In this document: positions 1 through 44,163 of the stretch, in pieces
How positions within the stretch are numbered: position 1 is the stretch's first letter
Layout of the letters: each line of letters opens with the position of its first letter
IMG/VR virus record: IMGVR_UViG_3300045988_126665
Direction: 5' to 3' (one strand)
Length of the DNA stretch: 44,163 nucleotides
From: a virus
Program-made: the position numbers and the translations under genes
Notes under the pieces: model-generated
Database searches by the model: none
Told to the model about the DNA's origin: nothing
What the model saw: only the letters and a program-made list of their open reading frames with translations

Positions 1-99
1 GATGCGCTTTGAGAAGGAAAAGACTTGGGAGTTGAAACGAAGATTGCAAACTTGGAAGAGGAACGATGACGAAAGAAAGGCACGATACCAAAGGACGGC
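1..99. repeat. Terminal direct repeat copy 1 (identical to 44065-44163); circular-assembly overlap
   Basis: nt 1-99 are identical to nt 44065-44163; an ORF reads through the junction without interruption. Confidence 0.95.
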
Positions 100-163
100 A
101 GCTCCGACAACCCCTGACAACTCACTTGACGCAAAAGAAGTGCTTAAAAATCTTGGAATATGA
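1..163 (+). CDS. 3' end of wrap-around replication initiator / replisome-organizer gene (continues from 43361-44163)
   Basis: Frame leaving 44163 continues at nt 100 and stops at TGA 161-163; ATGA overlap with dnaB start at 160. Confidence 0.7.
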   Translation, partial: MRFEKEKTWELKRRLQTWKRNDDERKARYQRTAAPTTPDNSLDAKEVLKNLGI

Positions 164-1443
164 GAGAGAAAAACCCACTATCAATAACGGAGTTCGCCAT
201 CCCCAACGATTTCAAGCTGGAGGTGACAACCCTGTGCGAAATGATAACAGGCACAAACCTTTTGAGAGAGGTATGGGACTGCACTTGCCTTGATATGTTC
301 TACGACAAGCGATGCAAGGATACATACAGGGCAATAAAGGAGATGTACGAGAATAGGGAAAAAATAGACTTTATGACTATTTCCACACGAATAGACAAAG
401 CCTTTTTCACCCACGAATTGATAACCAATTCCGCCTATGTCATAAACGCATTTGAGTTGCGTGCGCATTGTATGGCATTGGTGGAGATAATGCAGAAGCG
501 CAAATTCTATTTCTTCTGTGCCGAGGGACTACGAATGTCAGTACAGCCAACCACCACGGAGGGAGAATTGTTCGAGCAATCCGAGCAACTGAAAAAGAGC
601 CTACAAGAGGGCACTCTAACGGATAGCACGGAGTTACTTGACGATGTTGTGGAAAAGGTTGTCGACCATATTCAGAATAACGATTTCAAGCGCATCGCCA
701 CGGGCTTTCCATCTTTGGACAGACTGACCTACGGAGGATTGGCAGCAGGCAACCTCGTTATCTTGGCTGCAAGACCATCGGTGGGCAAGACGGCATTTAT
801 GCTCCAAATGGCGAGTACGAGTGCGGAAAGACAAATCCCTACATTGGTGCTTTCGCTGGAGATGACGAATGTGGATTTGGCGAAAAGGCTATTGTGCAGC
901 ACCGAGTATGTCAATTCGTACCAAATGGCGAGCGGAGAGATGGATTGGCAGAGTTTCGAGAGGGCAAAGGCAGTCTTGGCGAAAAAGACCTTGTATATGG
1001 ACGAAAAGCCGAGCACCATAGAGGATGTCTGTGCGCTTATCACGAAGAACCACCACAGAGGGCAGTGCGAAATTGCCTTTGTGGACTACTTGCAGTTGAT
1101 GTCATCCACGGAAAGGGCGGAAAGTCAGAACATACAGGTAGGCGAAATGACAAAGAGGTTGAAGAAATTGGCAAAAGCCTTGAAAATACCTATTGTATTG
1201 CTTTGTCAGTTAAATAGGCGAGTAGCGAGCGAGAACCGAGCACCACAACTCTATGACCTACGAGATAGCGGCTCAATCGAGCAAGATGCGGATATAGTGC
1301 TTATGCTGGAGCGTAAGCAGGATGCAGAGGGCAACAACACGAAAGAAGTAAATATGTATCTTCGCAAGAACAGGGAGGGCATCAAGGATGTCACCATACG
1401 ATGCGAAAGTAATGACAACTACACAAAATTTTATGAAATATGA
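160..1443 (+). CDS. dnaB: Replicative DNA helicase, DnaB family
   Basis: 427 aa; Walker A ARPSVGKTAF; IAFVDYLQLM Walker B region; DnaB signature LRDSGSIEQDADIVLML. Confidence 0.93.
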   Translation: MREKNPLSITEFAIPNDFKLEVTTLCEMITGTNLLREVWDCTCLDMFYDKRCKDTYRAIKEMYENREKIDFMTISTRIDKAFFTHELITNSAYVINAFELRAHCMALVEIMQKRKFYFFCAEGLRMSVQPTTTEGELFEQSEQLKKSLQEGTLTDSTELLDDVVEKVVDHIQNNDFKRIATGFPSLDRLTYGGLAAGNLVILAARPSVGKTAFMLQMASTSAERQIPTLVLSLEMTNVDLAKRLLCSTEYVNSYQMASGEMDWQSFERAKAVLAKKTLYMDEKPSTIEDVCALITKNHHRGQCEIAFVDYLQLMSSTERAESQNIQVGEMTKRLKKLAKALKIPIVLLCQLNRRVASENRAPQLYDLRDSGSIEQDADIVLMLERKQDAEGNNTKEVNMYLRKNREGIKDVTIRCESNDNYTKFYEI

Positions 1444-5511: not shown

Positions 5512-5625
5512 GGCATTGTGTGGTATAATGGTATAATCGCTTGGGTATCCAGTGCAAGTAGGTGGAGTTAAATTTTAATTCGGTGGTACTGCGAGAGATG
5601 CGGGTTCAAGTCCCGCCACAATGCC
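5512..5625 (+). tRNA. Atypical tRNA-like gene (114 nt; canonical T arm and acceptor-type helix, no clear anticodon loop)
   Basis: GGCATTGTG/CACAATGCC closing helix, GG-containing D-like region, T arm GCGGG-TTCAAGT-CCCGC at 5600-5616; central arm replaced by a long irregular helix. Confidence 0.45.
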
Positions 5626-12646: not shown

Positions 12647-13180
12647 ATGGGAAAATTGGACAATACATCAGTAGAGCGGAGGGTAGGAGTGATGCGAGAT
12701 TTGTCGGAGGGTGAGACTATGAGTGCGGTTGCGAGGAAGTACGGGATGGGGAGTAATACTGTGAGGGACATCAGGGGGGAGGCATTAGAGGCTTGGAGAG
12801 AGGCGAACATAGGGGCGATGGACGATATGATAAGTAGGGAGATGATGCGTATAGACAGTTTGGAGGAGGTAGTGATGCGGGACTACGAGAACAGCAAGCG
12901 TTCGTTAAAGCCTATGGAGTATGCGGCATTGATGGCGAGGGGGTTGAGTATGGACGAGATAGACGAGTGTTTTGCGAGCAGGCCTCAGAGTGGAGACCCG
13001 AGGTACTTGGACACTTTGTTGCGCATTGGGATGCAGAGGATGCGATTGATAGGTGCGGTTGGCAGGAGTGATAGGCGGAAGCAGACTATCAACCAGTACA
13101 ACTTCGGGAATTTGAGTGAGGAGGATATGCGCAGGATAGTTGGAGAGATGCAGGACGGCAAGTACAGGGAGGGCAGGTGA
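12647..13180 (+). CDS. terS: Terminase small subunit, putative
   Basis: 177 aa from first ATG (the listed 12617 start is GTG upstream of the promoter box); N-terminal HTH-like SAVARKYGMGSNTVRDI; stop overlaps terL start. Confidence 0.6.
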   Translation: MGKLDNTSVERRVGVMRDLSEGETMSAVARKYGMGSNTVRDIRGEALEAWREANIGAMDDMISREMMRIDSLEEVVMRDYENSKRSLKPMEYAALMARGLSMDEIDECFASRPQSGDPRYLDTLLRIGMQRMRLIGAVGRSDRRKQTINQYNFGNLSEEDMRRIVGEMQDGKYREGR

Positions 13181-15669
13181 TGAACGAGGAGATGTATGCG
13201 GAGCAGATGGTGCGGTATATGTCGGAGCGTGATTTGGGGATATATCTGCGTTATTTGCATCCAGAGTTAGAGATGACGAAGTGTCATCGTAACTACTACA
13301 AGATACTAAACAAGTTTGCTCACAAGGAGGTTAAGAAGTTAATTATCAGTGCGCCTCCTCAGTTTGGAAAAGCATTGAGGATAGATGAGCCTGTATTGAC
13401 TACAGGGGGGTGGAAGAGCCACGGAGAGTTAGTAGAGGGCGACTATGTGTTTGGTGAGGACGGAAAGCCGAAGAGGGTATTGTGGAATAGTGGTGCATAT
13501 AGTTGGCGTACGAGGAGGGTAGAGATGGCAGGCGGAGAGAGTATGGTATGTGCGCCAGAGCATTTGTGGAAGATATATTCCGACCACGATGATAGGAGGG
13601 GTCGTGTAGAGGAGATATTGGAGACGCAGAACATTTTCAATCGTAAGCATCGTAGACATCCGTACATAGCGGTCAATCGTGCGATAGAGTGCGAGGAAAG
13701 GGAGTTGCCTATTGAGCCGTATTTGTTAGGGTATTGGCTTGGGGATGGATATTCTCGTCAGGGCAAGATATGTAGCGGAAAGGAGGATGCTTGGAATTTG
13801 AGCCGGTTTGGTGTTGTCGAGGAACGCAAAGGTGGCAAGATGTACATAGTTAGGGTAGAGGGTTTGTCGAAGAAGTTGAGGGAAAACAACCTAATACAGA
13901 ACAAGCATATTCCCGAGGAATACTTTTTAGCATCCGTCGAGCAGAGGCTGGCATTGTTACAGGGCTTAATGGACACGGACGGATACGCATCGAAGAGGGG
14001 ATATTGTGAGTTTTGTCAAAAGGAGGGTCAGTTAGGCGAGGATGTCTATACTTTGCTCCGAAGTTTGGGATACGAGCCTACGAAGAAGTACGAGAGGGCT
14101 ATGTGTAATGGCAAGGATTGTGGCAGGAAGATACGCATCACATTCAGTCCCGACAAGGGGGATGAGTTATTCCGCTTGCCGAGAAAGCAGGCGAGGGTAG
14201 ACAACAAGGAGGCAGTAGACCGAAATGACAAGAAGAAGTTTTTCATCGTTGGTATAAGGGAGAGCGAGGACACAATGGTTAATTGCATCCAAGTAGAGGG
14301 TGGTATGTACCTTGCTGGTCGTGCGCTTATCCCTACCCACAATTCCGAGGGAAGCAGTAGGGGATTGCCGAGTTTTCTTATGGGTATGCGTCCGAGTGAC
14401 AGTATAGTTATTGGTAGTTACAACACGGAATTGGCGAGGACGTTCAATTCGGATGTACAGAGGTGGATGCGCACGGATGCTTATGGTGCGGTCTTTCCTA
14501 ACACTATCATCAGTGACGGCAGGGAGAACAGGGAGTACAAGTGCAACGCGGACGAGACGCAGGTAGTCGGTGAGGACGGCAGTGGGTTGAGGGTAGTCGG
14601 CAGGGGCAGTTCGTTGACTGGTAGAAAGGTGGATGTAATGATTATGGACGACTTGTACAAGGACTACAATGAGGCGAGCAGTCCGATAGTGCGGAACAAG
14701 ACTTGGAGGTGGTACACGAGTGTAGTCTTGTCCCGATTGCAGGATTGGGGACAGCAGTTGATGGTGTTCACGAGGTGGAACGAGGATGACTTGATAGGAC
14801 GGATTATGCAGACGGAGAGGGTAGTGAAGATAGAGAGGTGGAGCGATTTAGACAAGGTTGGTGACGATTGGGCGTATGTGAACTTTCCGGCTATCAAGGT
14901 GGGCGCTCCTACGGAGATAGACCCGAGGGAGGATGGTGAGGTAATTTTCCCGAGCCATAGTAGTTTGAAGACCTTGTTGGCGAAGAAGAGGGCTGACCCT
15001 TATGTGTTCGAGTGTTTGTATCAAGGCAATCCGTTCAGTGAGGACAACAAGTTGTATGGTGAGTTCAAGACCTACACGGACAAGGGCGAGTATGGAGTAT
15101 TGGTGCGCAAGGGGTGTTGCATAGACGTAGCTGGCAAGGGAGGGGATGACACTTGCAGTATCTGTTACGATGTGTATAGGAGCAAGAACAATGTGTACAA
15201 TGAGCAGACGAGGCGGTTTGAGCCTTTGGTATTCATATTGGTGACGGACATTTACTTGAGCAATGCTGGAGTAGAGGAGACGAGCATAGTGATACCTCAA
15301 CAGATAAATATGCAGGGCAGTCAGGTTGTGTGGTGCGAGCGGAATGCAGGTGGAGAGCAGTTCGGAATGAGTATAGCGAAGAAGGTGCGTGCGAAGATAG
15401 AGTTGTATTTCAGTGAGGGCAACAAGGAGGCGAGGATTATCAATTCGGCTGGGGATGTAATGTCTCAGATTATCTTTCCGTTGGGGTGGGAGAGCAGGTG
15501 GCCGAAGGCGTTCAAGGAGCTGGACGGCTTTGTTAGGCATTTCAAGGCGAATGCGCACGACGATGTTCCGGATGTATTGAGCAGTATTGTACAGAGGGAG
15601 ATACTATGCAAAAATCCCACACGAGGATATGTGGGATTTAGGAATAGGGGCATTAGGAGGGCGAATTAG
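13180..15669 (+). CDS. terL: Terminase large subunit, intein-containing
   Basis: Walker A PPQFGK|S split by insert; Walker B VDVMIMDDL; nuclease-domain acidic motifs downstream; TGATG coupling to terS. Confidence 0.9.
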   Translation: MNEEMYAEQMVRYMSERDLGIYLRYLHPELEMTKCHRNYYKILNKFAHKEVKKLIISAPPQFGKALRIDEPVLTTGGWKSHGELVEGDYVFGEDGKPKRVLWNSGAYSWRTRRVEMAGGESMVCAPEHLWKIYSDHDDRRGRVEEILETQNIFNRKHRRHPYIAVNRAIECEERELPIEPYLLGYWLGDGYSRQGKICSGKEDAWNLSRFGVVEERKGGKMYIVRVEGLSKKLRENNLIQNKHIPEEYFLASVEQRLALLQGLMDTDGYASKRGYCEFCQKEGQLGEDVYTLLRSLGYEPTKKYERAMCNGKDCGRKIRITFSPDKGDELFRLPRKQARVDNKEAVDRNDKKKFFIVGIRESEDTMVNCIQVEGGMYLAGRALIPTHNSEGSSRGLPSFLMGMRPSDSIVIGSYNTELARTFNSDVQRWMRTDAYGAVFPNTIISDGRENREYKCNADETQVVGEDGSGLRVVGRGSSLTGRKVDVMIMDDLYKDYNEASSPIVRNKTWRWYTSVVLSRLQDWGQQLMVFTRWNEDDLIGRIMQTERVVKIERWSDLDKVGDDWAYVNFPAIKVGAPTEIDPREDGEVIFPSHSSLKTLLAKKRADPYVFECLYQGNPFSEDNKLYGEFKTYTDKGEYGVLVRKGCCIDVAGKGGDDTCSICYDVYRSKNNVYNEQTRRFEPLVFILVTDIYLSNAGVEETSIVIPQQINMQGSQVVWCERNAGGEQFGMSIAKKVRAKIELYFSEGNKEARIINSAGDVMSQIIFPLGWESRWPKAFKELDGFVRHFKANAHDDVPDVLSSIVQREILCKNPTRGYVGFRNRGIRRAN
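13372..14343 (+). mobile_element. Intein (324 aa) with LAGLIDADG homing-endonuclease domain, class-3-type signature
   Basis: Begins ALRIDEPVLTTGGW after GK, ends LIPTHN before Ser; LAGLIDADG motifs at 13723-13755 and 13954-13992; block B EHLW, block F VNCIQVE, block G PTHN. Confidence 0.85.
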
Positions 15670-34526: not shown

Positions 34527-35882
34527 ATGGCATACAAATATTTGAATGACGATGGGCTTAAAGCCTATACTAAAAAGGTCAAGGAATATATTTCTTCCTT
34601 GTTGCCTACTAAATCCGTCACCTATGCCGAATTAAAGGCTTTGAGGGATGCAGGAGGACTTTTAGCAGGTAGAAAATACCGCATCACTGACTTTGTGACT
34701 ACTTCCGTACAAGCGGAAACTCGTAGTGCTGGTCACGCATTTGACATTATCGTAGTTGCGGACGATGAGAGCACTTTGAACGAAAACGCAAGGGCAATAC
34801 TCCACAAGGGCGACACTTACTTTGCGGACTGCAAATTGAGTGCTTGGGAACTGAAATACTGCCTTGACAACGATACCAATCGCTTTGCTTGGGCGGATGC
34901 TGCTAACGGCAAGGGTGTTGTGTGGTGGATGAAAGACGAATGGGACAACGAGTGCTACTATGACTTCAAGAACATCCAATACAAGTTATATGCAGGCACG
35001 GGCGATTCTTGGAATAAATATCTTGAAGACCTTAAAATAGGAGCAGAAGATATTGTTCCATATCGCCTAACGAAAGGTTTATCCGAAGCAGAATTAGGCA
35101 AGTACTCTTTTGACATAGATAATGACAATTTCATTTGGGCATATACTTGGTCTGCTTATGAAGACACAAAACAAACTTTTGATAAATCCTTAAAGGCAGA
35201 TGGCACGAAAGATGCCTATGATGATATTGTCCACGACTGCAAAGTGGGAGCAAATTGGGAAACATTGCAACAAGATGACGAAACTGTGTATAGTAGAATT
35301 TCGCTCAATTTCTATATTGCAATTCCTTTTTTCCTTGATTCCAAGGACGAAAGTTTTAGAACTTACAGTGTGAAGATTGGCGAAAATTGTCACGATATAG
35401 TAACAGGGCGAAAATGTAACTCCAACTCCTTTGGAAACAACTGCTACTATTGGACTTGCGGAAACGACTGCTCCTCTTGGACTTGCGGAAACGACTGCTA
35501 CTCTTGGACTTGCGGAAACAACTGCTACTATTGGACTTGCGGAAACGGCTGCTCCTCTTGGACTTGCGGAAACGACTGCTACTATTGGACTTGCGGAAAC
35601 GAAGTACAAAATACGAAGATACTACAAGACTATGTTTCCTACTTCCACTTGGACAGTGGCGTATCAAATGTAACAATACAGTCAAGTGGCACACCTACAA
35701 GTGGTACTCCGCTCAAAAATTTCATTGTCAAAGCAGGTGTAAAGGGTGCATCGTACACTGCTAAACTTGCAATCGTAATAGATGCATCTTCTTTCCCTCT
35801 CAATTCGGACTATGAGTGGACAATAGCGAAAAACTCAAGTGGTGCAATCAAGCAGTATTGTGAGGCAGATTTGATAAATTAA
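34527..35882 (+). CDS. Tail fibre / receptor-binding protein with WTCGNxCxx nonapeptide repeats
   Basis: 451 aa; six consecutive Cys-rich 9-aa units. Confidence 0.7.
   Translation: MAYKYLNDDGLKAYTKKVKEYISSLLPTKSVTYAELKALRDAGGLLAGRKYRITDFVTTSVQAETRSAGHAFDIIVVADDESTLNENARAILHKGDTYFADCKLSAWELKYCLDNDTNRFAWADAANGKGVVWWMKDEWDNECYYDFKNIQYKLYAGTGDSWNKYLEDLKIGAEDIVPYRLTKGLSEAELGKYSFDIDNDNFIWAYTWSAYEDTKQTFDKSLKADGTKDAYDDIVHDCKVGANWETLQQDDETVYSRISLNFYIAIPFFLDSKDESFRTYSVKIGENCHDIVTGRKCNSNSFGNNCYYWTCGNDCSSWTCGNDCYSWTCGNNCYYWTCGNGCSSWTCGNDCYYWTCGNEVQNTKILQDYVSYFHLDSGVSNVTIQSSGTPTSGTPLKNFIVKAGVKGASYTAKLAIVIDASSFPLNSDYEWTIAKNSSGAIKQYCEADLIN
35430..35600 (+). repeat. 27-bp tandem repeat (about 6 copies) TGGACTTGCGGAAACGACTGCTMCTMT, coding
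   Basis: Units start at 35451, 35478, 35505, 35532, 35559, 35586, with a degenerate copy upstream. Confidence 0.95.
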
Positions 35883-43360: not shown

Positions 43361-44163
43361 ATGAATAGTTTAAGCAGAGAAGGTAAACATAGAATTTATA
43401 GTTTTACTGCCGAATGGGCGATGGCTTTTGGAATAAATGGCGCAGTCTTATTGAGCAATCTTTATTTCTGGGTGAAAAAAAATAAAGAGAACGATGTCAG
43501 TTTCCACGATGGTCGCTATTGGACTTACAATACTCTGGATGCCTTTGCGGAACAATATCCGTTCTGGAGCAAAGACCAAATAAAGCGCATAATGAAAGAA
43601 TTGCGAGATAAGGGAATTATATTGGTAGGTAACTACAACACTAACAAGTACGATAGAACCCTTTGGTATAGCATAGATTTCGATAAAGTGGAAAGTATGT
43701 TAATGGATGTGGCGAAATCGCCATATCAAGATGGCGAAAGTACCACACCTATACCAGATATATACACAAATATAAACTCAATAAAAGAAACTAATACTAT
43801 AAATAGTATTAGCAAAGAAAAAAGCATTTTCTTTGGCGACCCACAAATGTCAAATCAAAGCACCGAGGGTGATACACCATCCCCCTTAAACAACCAAAAA
43901 GGAAAAGACTATTCTATGACCCCCCTTAATAATCCCCCCCTATCGGCAACCCGAGAGGAAAGGGAGCAAGCCTTCCGAGAGCAGGCCGACAAGTTTATCC
44001 CAGAGTATGGGCGGAAAATGATAGATGCCTTCTGCGACTATTGGACGGAGTTCGGAGGAAAGAAGATGCGCTTTGAGAAGGAAAAGACTTGGGAGTTGAA
44101 ACGAAGATTGCAAACTTGGAAGAGGAACGATGACGAAAGAAAGGCACGATACCAAAGGACGGC
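43361..44163 (+). CDS. Replication initiator / replisome organizer (winged-helix N-terminus), 5' part; wraps to nt 100-163 (288 aa in total)
   Basis: No stop before the window end; joined length 867 nt is in frame; N-terminal LLSNLYFW...DGRYWTYNTLDAFAEQYPFWSKDQIKRIMKELRDKGII resembles DnaD / phage replisome-organizer wHTH domains; directly upstream of dnaB. Confidence 0.65.
   Translation, partial: MNSLSREGKHRIYSFTAEWAMAFGINGAVLLSNLYFWVKKNKENDVSFHDGRYWTYNTLDAFAEQYPFWSKDQIKRIMKELRDKGIILVGNYNTNKYDRTLWYSIDFDKVESMLMDVAKSPYQDGESTTPIPDIYTNINSIKETNTINSISKEKSIFFGDPQMSNQSTEGDTPSPLNNQKGKDYSMTPLNNPPLSATREEREQAFREQADKFIPEYGRKMIDAFCDYWTEFGGKKMRFEKEKTWELKRRLQTWKRNDDERKARYQRT
44065..44163. repeat. Terminal direct repeat copy 2 (identical to 1-99)
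   Basis: Exact 99-nt identity with the window start. Confidence 0.95.

What the first reader, a model, noticed from the sequence alone, without database searches (positions are those of the whole stretch)
13372..14343. Class-3-type (Ala1, Trp-Cys-Thr) LAGLIDADG intein splitting the Walker A P-loop of the large terminase
TerL is about 320 aa longer than expected, and its P-loop is interrupted: ...LIISAPPQFGK | ALRIDEPVLTTGGW ...(324 aa)... GRALIPTHN | SEGSSRGL.... The insert carries the following Hint and homing-endonuclease blocks:
- a block-A-like start;
- block B, GESMVCAPEHLW;
- two LAGLIDADG motifs, LLGYWLGDGYS at 13723-13755 and LLQGLMDTDGYAS at 13954-13992;
- block F, VNCIQVEGG;
- block G, LIPTHN, followed by Ser at +1.

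Residue 1 is Ala rather than Cys or Ser. Trp in block B, Cys in block F and Thr before the HN sit where the class 3 (WCT) signature is defined, so splicing would go through a block-F cysteine. Deleting 13372-14343 restores a canonical GKS Walker A. This is a mobile element inside the packaging ATPase of a probable Bacteroidota phage.
Basis: partly seen in the sequence, partly recalled or inferred. Interest (0 to 1): 0.7.

Follow-up and report, generated by a model that had tools for sequence, protein, structure and literature searches.

The report
Class 3 intein splitting phage terminase
The DNA-packaging motor gene of this gut phage is interrupted, inside its ATP-binding loop, by a self-splicing and self-spreading protein element (an intein with a homing endonuclease); the reading is correct, but this kind of element is already well known in phage terminases.

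Summary
ORF 13177-15669 (+) encodes an 830-aa large terminase. Codons 13372-14343 form a 324-aa in-frame insert between Lys and Ser of the Walker A motif (PPQFGK|S).

Six intein-free relatives (about 90% DNA identity downstream of the insert) lack exactly this 972-bp segment. Their TerL is 506 aa, the predicted spliced length.

The insert is a bifunctional intein:
- Its N- and C-terminal splicing blocks align best with the solved class 3 DnaB mini-inteins 6bs8, 6rix and 6riy.
- The middle is a LAGLIDADG_3 domain.
- The AlphaFold model (pLDDT 94.6) superposes on PI-SceI-type intein endonucleases.

Ala1, His64, Trp66, Cys305, Thr322, His323 and Asn324 are invariant in 117 TerL inteins at this site (113 confirmed Ser+1).

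The element appears to be active. dN/dS is 0.08-0.14, endonuclease included. Synonymous divergence inside it is less than half that of the flanking exteins, with sharp borders. Three phage lineages carry both intein-plus and intein-minus alleles.

The kind is known. Tori et al. (2010) already listed class 3 inteins in terminase P-loops. Mycobacteriophage Phaux and Bacteroides phage BF766P4 carry relatives at the same site. Verdict: a new member of a known kind. Splicing chemistry is inferred, not shown.

The parts
13177..15669 (+). Large terminase (TerL) precursor ORF. It is 830 aa from GTG 13177, or 829 aa from ATG 13180.
   Evidence: ORF list. PHROG phrog_38 terminase large subunit, E = 8e-70. 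NCBIfam psiM2_ORF9 and Pfam T7 terminase RNaseH-like domain hits in the C-terminal part, both below their curated cut-offs.
13177..13371 (+). N-extein, 65 aa, ending in the first part of Walker A (SAPPQFGK).
   Evidence: Alignment to intein-free TerL P0002, P0014, P0056 and P0071. DNA alignment to L001-L006 stops at 13373-13381.
13372..14343 (+). Intein, 324 aa: a Hint splicing domain split by a LAGLIDADG homing endonuclease.
   Evidence: Clean 972-bp indel against intein-free loci. PDB sequence hits to class 3 DnaB inteins. AlphaFold model pLDDT 94.6 and Foldseek matches to PI-SceI, TliVMA and PI-PfuI.
13372..13413 (+). Block A (ALRIDEPVLTTGGW). Ala1 is at 13372-13374, so there is no N-terminal nucleophile.
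   Evidence: Aligns to ALALDTPLPTPSGW of 6bs8. Ala1 is invariant in 117 of 117 family inteins.
13534..13569 (+). Block B (GESMVCAPEHLW). His64 (B:10) is at 13561-13563 and Trp66 (B:12) at 13567-13569.
   Evidence: H and W align with the HQW of 6bs8 and 6rix. Both are invariant in 117 of 117 inteins, and in the wider alignment A2.
13723..13755 (+). LAGLIDADG motif 1 (LLGYWLGDGYS). The putative catalytic Asp125 is at 13744-13746.
   Evidence: Coordinates. Asp125 is conserved in 115 of 117 inteins. The model shows a helix here.
13954..13992 (+). LAGLIDADG motif 2 (LLQGLMDTDGYAS). The putative catalytic Asp203 is at 13978-13980.
   Evidence: Pfam LAGLIDADG_3 covers residues 190-241, E = 7e-8. G198, L199, M200, D201, D203 and G204 are invariant; T202 is Thr in 116 of 117.
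14278..14304 (+). Block F (VNCIQVEGG). Cys305 (F:4), the proposed first nucleophile, is at 14284-14286.
   Evidence: Aligns with VRCVEV of 6bs8 and 6rix. Invariant in 117 of 117 inteins and in A2. Its role is defined in PMC2807308.
14326..14346 (+). Block G (LIPTHN) plus the +1 residue. Thr322 (G:5) is at 14335-14337, His323 at 14338-14340, Asn324 at 14341-14343 and Ser+1 at 14344-14346.
   Evidence: Aligns with VPTHN of 6bs8. T, H and N are invariant in 117 of 117 inteins; the +1 residue is Ser in all 113 hits where both junctions were located.
14344..15669 (+). C-extein, 441 aa: the rest of the ATPase (Walker B, VDVMIMDD) and the RNase H-like nuclease domain.
   Evidence: About 90% DNA identity to intein-free loci from 14349 onwards. 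Protein alignment A1.

Best explanation
Segment 13372-14343 is a bifunctional, mobile intein inserted between Lys and Ser of the TerL Walker A motif.

Proposed sequence of events:
1. TerL is translated as an 830-aa precursor. Its ATP-binding loop is split, so it presumably cannot package DNA (inferred).
2. The Hint domain (residues about 1-105 and 291-324) excises itself and joins the exteins, giving a 506-aa TerL that reads GKS.

The intein starts with Ala and carries the Trp66 / Cys305 / Thr322 triplet. Splicing should therefore follow the class 3 route (inferred from characterised relatives):
1. Cys305 in block F attacks the Lys(-1)-Ala1 peptide bond, forming a thioester branched intermediate.
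2. The N-extein is passed to the hydroxyl of Ser+1.
3. Asn324 cyclises and releases the intein.
4. An O-to-N shift forms the Lys-Ser peptide bond.

The central LAGLIDADG domain (about 106-290) would cut intein-free terL alleles at the GK|S-coding site during co-infection. Repair then copies the intein in (homing). The population data shown here are consistent with this. Cleavage itself is inferred.
For: Structure and sequence:
- The insert is in frame, and precisely this segment is absent from relatives about 90% identical in DNA downstream of the insert (79-82% upstream) whose TerL has exactly the spliced length.
- The best solved relatives are class 3 DnaB inteins (6bs8 E = 8.6e-10; 6rix; 6riy). 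Both the N- and C-terminal splicing blocks align, and A1, H, W, C and THN match residue for residue.
- LAGLIDADG_3 is above its cut-off.
- The model has pLDDT 94.6 and pTM 0.92. It matches PI-SceI (TMq 0.76) and the class 3 Msm DnaB intein (TMt 0.79).

Conservation:
- Ala1, His64, Trp66, Cys305, Thr322, His323 and Asn324 are invariant in 117 inteins (69 distinct, identity to the window intein down to about 55%) at the same TerL site.
- His, Trp, Cys and THN are also invariant in relatives 35-40% identical that sit in other exteins.

Mobility and function:
- dN/dS is 0.08-0.14 over the intein and 0.08-0.14 over the endonuclease domain.
- Window versus L007/L008: intein dS is 0.18-0.24, against 0.47-0.79 in the exteins.
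- Third-position differences are 10% in the intein against 22% in the exteins for window versus L007 (Fisher p = 1.3e-5), and 13% against 23% versus L008 (p = 2e-4). The drop is sharp at both borders.
- Intein-plus and intein-minus alleles share the same 90% cluster in three TerL lineages.
- Across lineages, the inteins are 55-65% identical while their exteins are 44-54% identical.

Literature:
- The class 3 mechanism and the WCT triplet were defined and tested by mutagenesis (PMC2807308, PMC5222942) and studied structurally (PMC7664689).
- TerL inteins from mycobacteriophages splice, and their endonucleases cut (PMC5050341).
Against: - No experiment here shows splicing, the requirement for Cys305, or DNA cleavage.
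- The WCT signature alone does not exclude direct attack by the +1 residue. PMC5222942 states that such inteins could in principle use the class 2 or the class 3 route until Cys F:4 is mutated.
- Grafting WCT onto a class 1 intein did not give splicing (PMC7664689), so the triplet is necessary but not sufficient.
- The lower dS of the intein could partly reflect different codon constraints rather than recent transfer.
Confidence: 0.85

Rival explanations
1. It is a genuine splicing intein, but it does not use the block F cysteine. Ser+1 attacks the N-terminal junction directly (class 2-like), or another non-canonical route is used.
For: Ala1 rules out only the class 1 route. [quoted passage not shown]
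Against: - All known class 2 inteins (KlbA) lack WCT (PMC2807308).
- Every WCT intein whose Cys F:4 mutant is reported in the papers read (MP-Be DnaB, Msm DnaB-1, Mle DnaB, Bvi IcmO) needed Cys F:4.
- Cys305 is invariant in 117 of 117 relatives, and in relatives within other exteins.
- The nearest solved relatives are class 3 inteins; Msm DnaB-1 has been shown to be class 3 by mutagenesis.
Confidence: 0.07
2. It is a decayed intein that no longer splices, or whose endonuclease is dead. On this reading the terL copy is defective, or the element is only inherited vertically.
For: Splicing and cleavage were not tested. Some class 3-like inteins are pseudogenes, for example Arthrobacter Arth_1007 (PMC3196547, listed).
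Against: - The reading frame is intact, and all catalytic residues of both domains are present and invariant.
- dN/dS is about 0.1 in both the Hint and the endonuclease parts.
- The genome looks complete, with a 99-bp terminal overlap, and has only one terL.
- Copies 94% identical occur in independent metagenomes.
- The intein is younger than its flanks.
Confidence: 0.04
3. It is not a protein-splicing element. It would instead be either a native accessory domain of this TerL or a group I intron carrying an in-frame LAGLIDADG ORF that is removed at the RNA level.
For: LAGLIDADG ORFs are common in group I introns. Large insertions do occur in phage proteins.
Against: - Relatives about 90% identical in DNA downstream of the insert lack the segment precisely, so it is not a native domain.
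- The segment's two ends form a Hint domain homologous to solved inteins, with THN|S at the exact border.
- The reading frame is continuous through both junctions.
- No Rfam intron family reaches threshold anywhere in the window.
Confidence: 0.01

Closest known systems
Class 3 (WCT) inteins defined on the mycobacteriophage Bethlehem DnaB intein, with the M. smegmatis and M. chimaera DnaB-1 mini-inteins as solved structures (6bs8, 6rix, 6riy; PMC2807308, PMC5222942, PMC6195587, PMC7664689)
   Same: - There is no nucleophile at position 1 (Ala).
- His B:10, Trp B:12, Cys F:4, Thr G:5, His-Asn and a Ser/Thr at +1 are present.
- Insertion is after the Lys of a P-loop GK[S/T].
- They are the best sequence match in PDB (E = 8.6e-10), and the splicing domain fold matches.
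   Different: - The solved DnaB inteins are mini-inteins without an endonuclease, and they sit in a replicative helicase. This one keeps a full LAGLIDADG domain and sits in TerL.
- Sequence identity in the splicing blocks is only moderate.
Mycobacteriophage TerL P-loop intein ('TerL1-a' site of Kelley et al. 2016, PMC5050341), for example the phage Phaux terminase
   Same: - The host protein is the same and the insertion point is the same...NGK|ALDVETPILTGNGW ... HHLW ... VCIQ ... TPTHN|T in Phaux.
- It is a full-length LAGLIDADG intein, 33.8% identical over all 324 aa.
- TerL inteins from other sites (b, c, e, f, g) spliced, and two had active endonucleases.
   Different: - The extein is an unrelated TerL family (terminase_1 of actinobacteriophages, against a Terminase_6/T7-like TerL here).
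- The +1 residue is Thr rather than Ser.
- The host phylum differs.
- My equation of Phaux with site 'a' rests on the K|T junction, not on the paper's tables.
TerL of the cultured Bacteroides fragilis phage BF766P4 (OP172679.1, CDS WAX07545.1, annotated 'hypothetical protein')
   Same: - The TerL family and the site are the same: VPPQTGK|ELSDS... HEW ... NCIQVEGGVYLVG..VPTHN|SEGSSRKLPSFLLG.
- The protein is 834 aa.
- The host is in Bacteroidota.
   Different: - The intein is only 31% identical.
- Its first residue is Glu, not Ala.
- The database record does not annotate it as an intein.
PI-SceI, TliVMA and PI-PfuI: class 1 inteins with LAGLIDADG homing endonucleases
   Same: The overall two-domain architecture is the same: Hint plus a LAGLIDADG endonuclease. 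These are the best structural matches to the whole model (TMq 0.67-0.76).
   Different: - They begin with Cys1 and have Asp at F:4, so they use class 1 chemistry.
- They sit in different exteins.
- Sequence identity is 12-18%.

Membership tests
Intein (Hint-domain protein-splicing element) | In-frame insertion that is absent from close homologues; removing it restores a colinear host protein. | tested here: met
   P0002 is 506 aa, the exact spliced length, and 93.5% identical. DNA of L001-L006 aligns up to 13373-13381 and again from 14349.
Intein (Hint-domain protein-splicing element) | Splicing blocks A, B, F and G, and the Hint fold. | tested here: met
   phmmer aligns residues 1-67 and 292-324 to the DnaB mini-inteins. 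The AlphaFold model (pLDDT 94.6) matches intein and Hedgehog Hint structures.
Intein (Hint-domain protein-splicing element) | C-terminal His-Asn followed by a Cys, Ser or Thr at +1. | tested here: met
   THN|S at 14335-14346. T, H and N are invariant in 117 inteins; the +1 residue is Ser in all 113 hits where both junctions were located.
Intein (Hint-domain protein-splicing element) | Demonstrated excision and extein ligation. | not testable with these tools
   This needs protein expression with SDS-PAGE or mass spectrometry.
Class 3 intein (Tori et al. 2010) | No Cys, Ser or Thr at intein position 1. | tested here: met
   Ala1 (GCA, 13372-13374). It is Ala in 117 of 117 relatives.
Class 3 intein (Tori et al. 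2010) | WCT triplet: Trp at B:12, Cys at F:4, Thr at G:5. | tested here: met
   Trp66, Cys305 and Thr322 align with the W, C and T of 6bs8 and 6rix. They are invariant in the family and in the wider alignment A2. The positions are as defined in PMC5222942.
Class 3 intein (Tori et al. 2010) | Ser or Thr (rarely Cys) at +1. | tested here: met
   Ser+1 (TCC, 14344-14346). It is Ser in 113 of 113 TerL relatives.
Class 3 intein (Tori et al. 2010) | Closer to experimentally proven class 3 inteins than to class 1 or class 2 inteins. | tested here: met
   The top three PDB sequence hits are class 3 DnaB inteins (E from 8.6e-10 to 4.2e-7). Class 1 inteins match only through the endonuclease, at E about 0.06 or worse.
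Class 3 intein (Tori et al. 2010) | Absolute requirement for Cys F:4, and a thiol-labile block F branched intermediate. | not testable with these tools
   This needs a C305A mutant and trapping of the intermediate, as in PMC2807308 and PMC5222942.
LAGLIDADG homing endonuclease (two-motif, monomeric type) | Two LAGLIDADG helices, each with a conserved acidic residue, in an alpha-beta-beta-alpha-beta-beta-alpha fold. | tested here: met
   Pfam LAGLIDADG_3 scores 33 bits against a cut-off of 22.5. The motifs are at 13723-13755 and 13954-13992, with Asp125 conserved in 115 of 117 and Asp203 in 117 of 117. The fold matches PI-SceI and the bI3 maturase.
LAGLIDADG homing endonuclease (two-motif, monomeric type) | Site-specific cleavage of the intein-free allele. 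| not testable with these tools
   Only indirect evidence is available: purifying selection on the domain (dN/dS 0.08-0.14), intein dS below extein dS, and presence/absence polymorphism.

The most novel reading that the evidence does not exclude
The intein may be more than a parasite: it could act as a conditional switch on DNA packaging.

Its only initiating nucleophile is a cysteine (Cys305). The related class 3 Msm DnaB-1 intein is reported to respond to oxidative stress (PMC6195587, abstract only). Splicing of TerL in this phage of anaerobic Bacteroidota might therefore be blocked by oxygen or oxidants, so that virion assembly is held back until the host returns to a reducing environment.

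A second, smaller possibility concerns the junction codons. All six sampled intein-free alleles read AAG|AGC, while intein-bearing alleles read AAA|TCN. The AAG|AGC form may be a target-site variant that resists the endonuclease, which would make this a visible arms race.
Probability: 0.1. Interest if true: 0.55.

Novelty: new member of a known kind. Interest (0 to 1): 0.25.

Why it matters
For annotation:
- The correct TerL product of this phage is 506 aa, not 830 aa.
- The 972-bp segment should be removed before terminase phylogenies or packaging-type predictions are made.
- Public records, such as Bacteroides phage BF766P4, carry the same kind of element unannotated.

For biology:
- The locus adds a well-sampled natural system for studying intein homing in uncultured gut phages. 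Intein-plus and intein-minus alleles co-occur in at least three TerL lineages of human-gut-type phages.
- It also adds one more class 3 intein with an apparently intact endonuclease to the protein-engineering toolbox.

It does not change what is known about intein mechanisms or their distribution. Class 3 inteins in terminase P-loops have been described since 2010.

Tried and rejected
1. **Co-conversion tract from comparison with intein-free alleles.**
   - Identity between window and L002 dips to 74-79% around the junction, against about 91% further downstream.
   - The excess is mostly non-synonymous. The N-terminal 65 aa are also variable among the intein-free homologues themselves, and the lower identity extends more than 800 bp upstream into the neighbouring gene.
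   - I therefore do not claim a co-conversion tract from this comparison.
   - The only junction-proximal signal I keep is the codon difference: AAA|TCN in intein-plus alleles against AAG|AGC in all six intein-free alleles. In another lineage the intein-free allele uses TCA, so this is suggestive only.

2. **P0001-type TerL as the donor of the window's intein.** Rejected: that intein is only 65% identical. The real close relatives (94-95%) were hidden inside the P0002 90% cluster and were found only by listing cluster members.

3. **Intein-only word-indexed protein search.** It missed most TerL inteins and mainly returned dCTP deaminase inteins. The exhaustive representative search gave the true family size.

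4. **Megablast of window 1-25000 against cultured phages.** It found nothing, so there is no close cultured relative at the DNA level.

5. **A second intein in the window.** tblastn with the intein found none. The DnaB-like helicase P-loop (GKT) is uninterrupted.

6. **Active-site geometry.** The structure tool returns no coordinates, so distances around Cys305 could not be measured.
Full report
**1. The observation**

The window holds one long ORF on the + strand, 13177-15669. It is 830 aa from GTG, or 829 aa from the ATG at 13180.

- Reading the DNA, codon 66 is GCA (Ala) at 13372-13374. It follows directly after ...AGT GCG CCT CCT CAG TTT GGA AAA (SAPPQFGK).
- Codons 13335-13343... more precisely 14335-14343 are ACC CAC AAT (Thr-His-Asn), followed by TCC (Ser) at 14344-14346.
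- The segment 13372-14343 is 972 nt, 324 codons, in frame and without stops.
- Removing the segment gives a 506-aa protein that reads SAPPQFGKSEGSSRGL, a canonical [AG]xxxxGK[ST] Walker A.

**2. The host gene and the genome**

- The ORF is a large terminase. PHROG phrog_38 gives E = 8e-70. The C-terminal part gives NCBIfam psiM2_ORF9 and Pfam T7-terminase RNaseH-like domain hits, both below their curated cut-offs.
- The window is a complete-looking siphovirus-type genome. Bases 1-99 are identical to 44065-44163, so the unique length is 44,064 bp.
- It encodes a DnaB-like helicase, resolvase, methyltransferase, dUTPase, portal, head proteins, tape measure and tail fibres.
- The spliced TerL is 44-46% identical to TerL of Bacteroides fragilis phages of the B40-8 group, and of Parabacteroides, Alistipes and Elizabethkingia phages.
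- Of 75 records matching the portal, 74 are named phages of Bacteroidota genera and one is an unnamed 'Bacteriophage' record.
- The Bacteroidota promoter consensus TTG-N19-TAnnTTTG occurs 6 times, against 0.86 expected.
- A Bacteroidota host is therefore well supported, though still inferred.

**3. The insert is not part of the native protein**

- The protein search returned intein-free TerL homologues. P0002 is 506 aa, exactly the spliced length, and 93.5% identical over the exteins. P0014 is 83% identical, P0056 80% and P0071 79%.
- P0056 and P0071 read PQTGK|SECSSRGL and PQFGK|TEASSRGL across the site.
- At the DNA level, six gut-metagenome contigs carrying P0002 (L001-L006) have the same neighbours: a 177-aa upstream gene and a dUTPase downstream.
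- They align with the window up to 13373-13381 and again from 14349, at about 80% identity upstream and about 90% downstream.
- The difference is a clean 972-bp indel.

**4. What the insert is**

- Pfam finds LAGLIDADG_3 at residues 190-241: 33 bits against a cut-off of 22.5, E = 7e-8.
- Against all PDB sequences, the three best hits are DnaB mini-inteins: 6bs8 (E = 8.6e-10), 6rix and 6riy.
- Two matched stretches cover residues 1-67 and 292-324, that is, both halves of the splicing domain.
- Foldseek labels 6bs8 'The class 3 DnaB intein from Mycobacterium smegmatis', and 6rix/6riy the MchDnaB-1 intein. PMC7664689 describes the latter as class 3.
- An AlphaFold2 model was built from residues -5 to +5 with a 51-sequence alignment. 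It has mean pLDDT 94.6 and pTM 0.92.
- Its best structural matches are full intein-endonucleases: PI-SceI at TMq 0.76, then TliVMA, PhoVMA and PI-PfuI. The class 3 Msm DnaB intein follows, with TM 0.79 normalised on the target.
- The element is therefore a Hint splicing domain (about 1-105 plus 291-324) interrupted by a two-motif LAGLIDADG endonuclease.

**5. The class 3 signature**

The literature defines class 3 inteins by three features (PMC2807308, PMC5222942, PMC7664689):
- absence of a Cys, Ser or Thr at position 1;
- almost always Ser or Thr at +1.

This intein fits all three:
- In GESMVCAPEHLW, His64 is B:10 and Trp66 is B:12.
- In MVNCIQVEGG, Cys305 is F:4.
- In LIPTHN|S, Thr322 is G:5, His323 G:6, Asn324 G:7 and Ser G:8.
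- These assignments do not rest on counting alone. HMMER aligns H, W, C and THN onto the same residues of the class 3 structures.

Conservation supports the assignment:
- I extracted 117 inteins (69 distinct, identity to the window intein down to about 55%) from the TerL hits at this same site.
- Ala1, His64, Trp66, Cys305, Thr322, His323 and Asn324 are invariant in them. Ser+1 is present in all 113 hits where both junctions were located.
- In a wider alignment that includes relatives 35-40% identical from other host proteins, His, Trp, Cys and THN remain invariant.
- The B:7 position is Ala rather than the Thr of class 1 inteins. In the Bethlehem DnaB intein that position was shown to be dispensable.

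**6. Evidence that the element is alive and mobile**

*6a. Close relatives.*
- Listing the members of the 90% clusters showed that intein-bearing and intein-free TerL alleles sit in the same cluster in three lineages: P0002, P0008 and P0053.
- In the window's own lineage, P0424 and P0428 (829 aa) are 94% identical to the window TerL, intein included.
- Their contigs, L007 and L008, come from two further sequencing runs.

*6b. Selection.* Nei-Gojobori dN/dS among the three intein copies is 0.08-0.14 overall and 0.08-0.14 in the endonuclease domain. Both activities are under purifying selection.

*6c. Age relative to the flanks.*
- Between the window and L007/L008, synonymous divergence is 0.18-0.24 inside the intein. 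It is 0.47-0.52 in the C-extein and 0.59-0.79 in the N-extein.
- Against L007, third-position differences are 33 of 324 in the intein and 110 of 505 in the exteins (Fisher p = 1.3e-5). Against L008, p = 2e-4.
- The change is abrupt at both borders. There are 24 differences in the 150 nt before the intein, 10 in its first 150 nt, 8 in its last 150 nt and 24 in the 150 nt after it.
- The intein copies thus share a more recent ancestor than the genes around them. This is what homing between diverged alleles produces.

*6d. Across lineages.* Inteins are more alike (55-65%) than their exteins (44-54%).

*6e. Junction codons.*
- The three intein-bearing alleles read AAA|intein|TC(C/T/G). All six intein-free alleles read AAG|AGC.
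- Changing Ser AGC to TCN needs two substitutions. The sampled empty sites are therefore not simple precise deletions of these inteins.
- In another lineage the empty site uses TCA, so I treat this only as a hint of co-conversion or of target-site variation.

**7. Mechanism**

Shown here: the architecture, the catalytic residues, homology to proven class 3 inteins, absence from close relatives, and the population signatures of mobility.

Inferred from characterised relatives:
1. The precursor is inactive because the P-loop is split. Kelley et al. reached the same conclusion for TerL inteins by mapping insertion sites onto a pentamer structure.
2. Cys305 attacks the Lys-Ala1 bond and forms a block F thioester branch.
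3. The N-extein moves to Ser+1.
4. Asn324 cyclises.
5. An O-N shift gives GKS.
6. The LAGLIDADG domain cuts empty terL alleles during co-infection, and repair copies the intein in.

**8. Rivals**

- A class 2-like direct attack by Ser+1 cannot be excluded without a C305A mutant. It is unlikely, given the invariance of Cys305 and the behaviour of every WCT intein whose Cys F:4 mutant is reported in the papers read.
- A decayed intein is contradicted by the intact residues, the low dN/dS and the single terL in a complete genome.
- A native domain is excluded by the intein-free relatives (about 90% DNA identity downstream of the insert).
- An RNA intron is contradicted by the Hint domain ending exactly at the borders, by the continuous reading frame, and by the absence of any Rfam intron match.

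**9. Comparison with what is known**

- Tori et al. [quoted passage not shown]
- Kelley et al. (2016) found TerL to be the commonest intein host in mycobacteriophages. They described a 'classic' P-loop insertion between the invariant Lys and the Thr, and showed splicing and endonuclease activity for several TerL inteins.

In cultured phages, 742 records match this intein. Two were examined at the junction:
- Mycobacteriophage Phaux TerL reads NGK|ALDVETPILTGNGW...HHLW...VCIQ...TPTHN|T and is 33.8% identical.
- Bacteroides phage BF766P4 has an 834-aa 'hypothetical protein' that reads PPQTGK|ELSDS...HEW...NCIQVEGG...VPTHN|SEGSSRKLP.

The exhaustive search found 17,481 50%-identity representatives matching the intein at E <= 1e-3, and 2,634 at E <= 1e-30.

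**10. Verdict**

The element is a new member, at most 65% identical to the intein of any other TerL lineage among the 120 best hits, of a well-described kind.

- No paper in the held library links inteins with Bacteroides-phage terminases beyond one Crassvirales review, which I did not read. The occurrence in this phage group therefore seems not to have been described there.
- That is an extension of range, not of concept.
- Interest is low to moderate. The main practical value is correct annotation, plus a naturally polymorphic system for studying homing.

Noticed in passing
window 5514-5624 (+): A tRNA-like gene. Rfam tRNA scores 35.7 bits (gathering 29) over the full model, with perfect acceptor and T arms, but there is a 41-47-nt insertion in the anticodon arm. 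Default ARAGORN finds nothing. With introns allowed, ARAGORN calls tRNA-Thr(GGT) with a 41-nt 'intron'. The insertion is too short for a group I intron, and I have no explanation.
   Followed up: partly
window 1-99 and 44065-44163: A 99-bp exact direct repeat at the two ends of the window. This is most simply an assembly overlap of a circular or circularly permuted complete genome of 44,064 bp.
   Followed up: no
window 35406-35621 (+), inside ORF 34527-35882: A tandem array of about eight 27-nt units (9-aa repeats, 74-100% identical) within a 451-aa ORF. The ORF has no PHROG match and lies among the tail-fibre genes.
   Followed up: no
P0013 and P0091 (1159 and 1158 aa TerL relatives); the equivalent window position is about 15560-15580 (KANAHDD|VPDVL): Some relatives carry a second intein, this time class 1-like...ANTHDDM|CFVAGTMI...GILVSN|CDALTG, with a precomputed Pfam PF13403 hit (my identification: Hint_2). 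It sits next to the HDD motif of the nuclease domain, in addition to the P-loop intein.
   Followed up: partly
P0128-P0240 (dCTP deaminases, several named from Actinomycetota): Full-length relatives of this intein (34-38% identical; Ala1, THN, Ser+1) sit in dCTP deaminase after ...RLEGK|SSLGRLGL. This is a GK|S context resembling a P-loop in a protein that is not a P-loop NTPase. It looks like extein switching guided by a similar target sequence.
   Followed up: partly
L013 1282-3783 (Bacteroides phage BF766P4, OP172679.1, CDS WAX07545.1): A cultured B. fragilis phage has a TerL annotated only as 'hypothetical protein'. It contains an unannotated W-C-T intein at the same GK| site, and its first residue is Glu rather than Ala.
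   Followed up: partly
window 13369-13371 and 14344-14346, compared with L001-L008: The codons flanking the intein differ systematically between alleles. The three intein-bearing alleles have AAA (Lys-1) and TCC/TCT/TCG (Ser+1). All six intein-free alleles have AAG and AGC. This may reflect co-conversion or a cleavage-resistant empty site.
   Followed up: partly
protein clusters of P0002, P0008 and P0053: Clustering at 90% identity merges intein-containing (829-840 aa) and intein-free (503-512 aa) TerL alleles under one representative. As a result, the closest intein-bearing relatives of the window were invisible in the ordinary homology search.
   Followed up: yes
window 160-1443 (+): The phage's DnaB-like helicase has an uninterrupted P-loop (ARPSVGKTAF), although DnaB P-loops are the classic home of class 3 inteins. 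There is no second intein anywhere in the window.
   Followed up: yes
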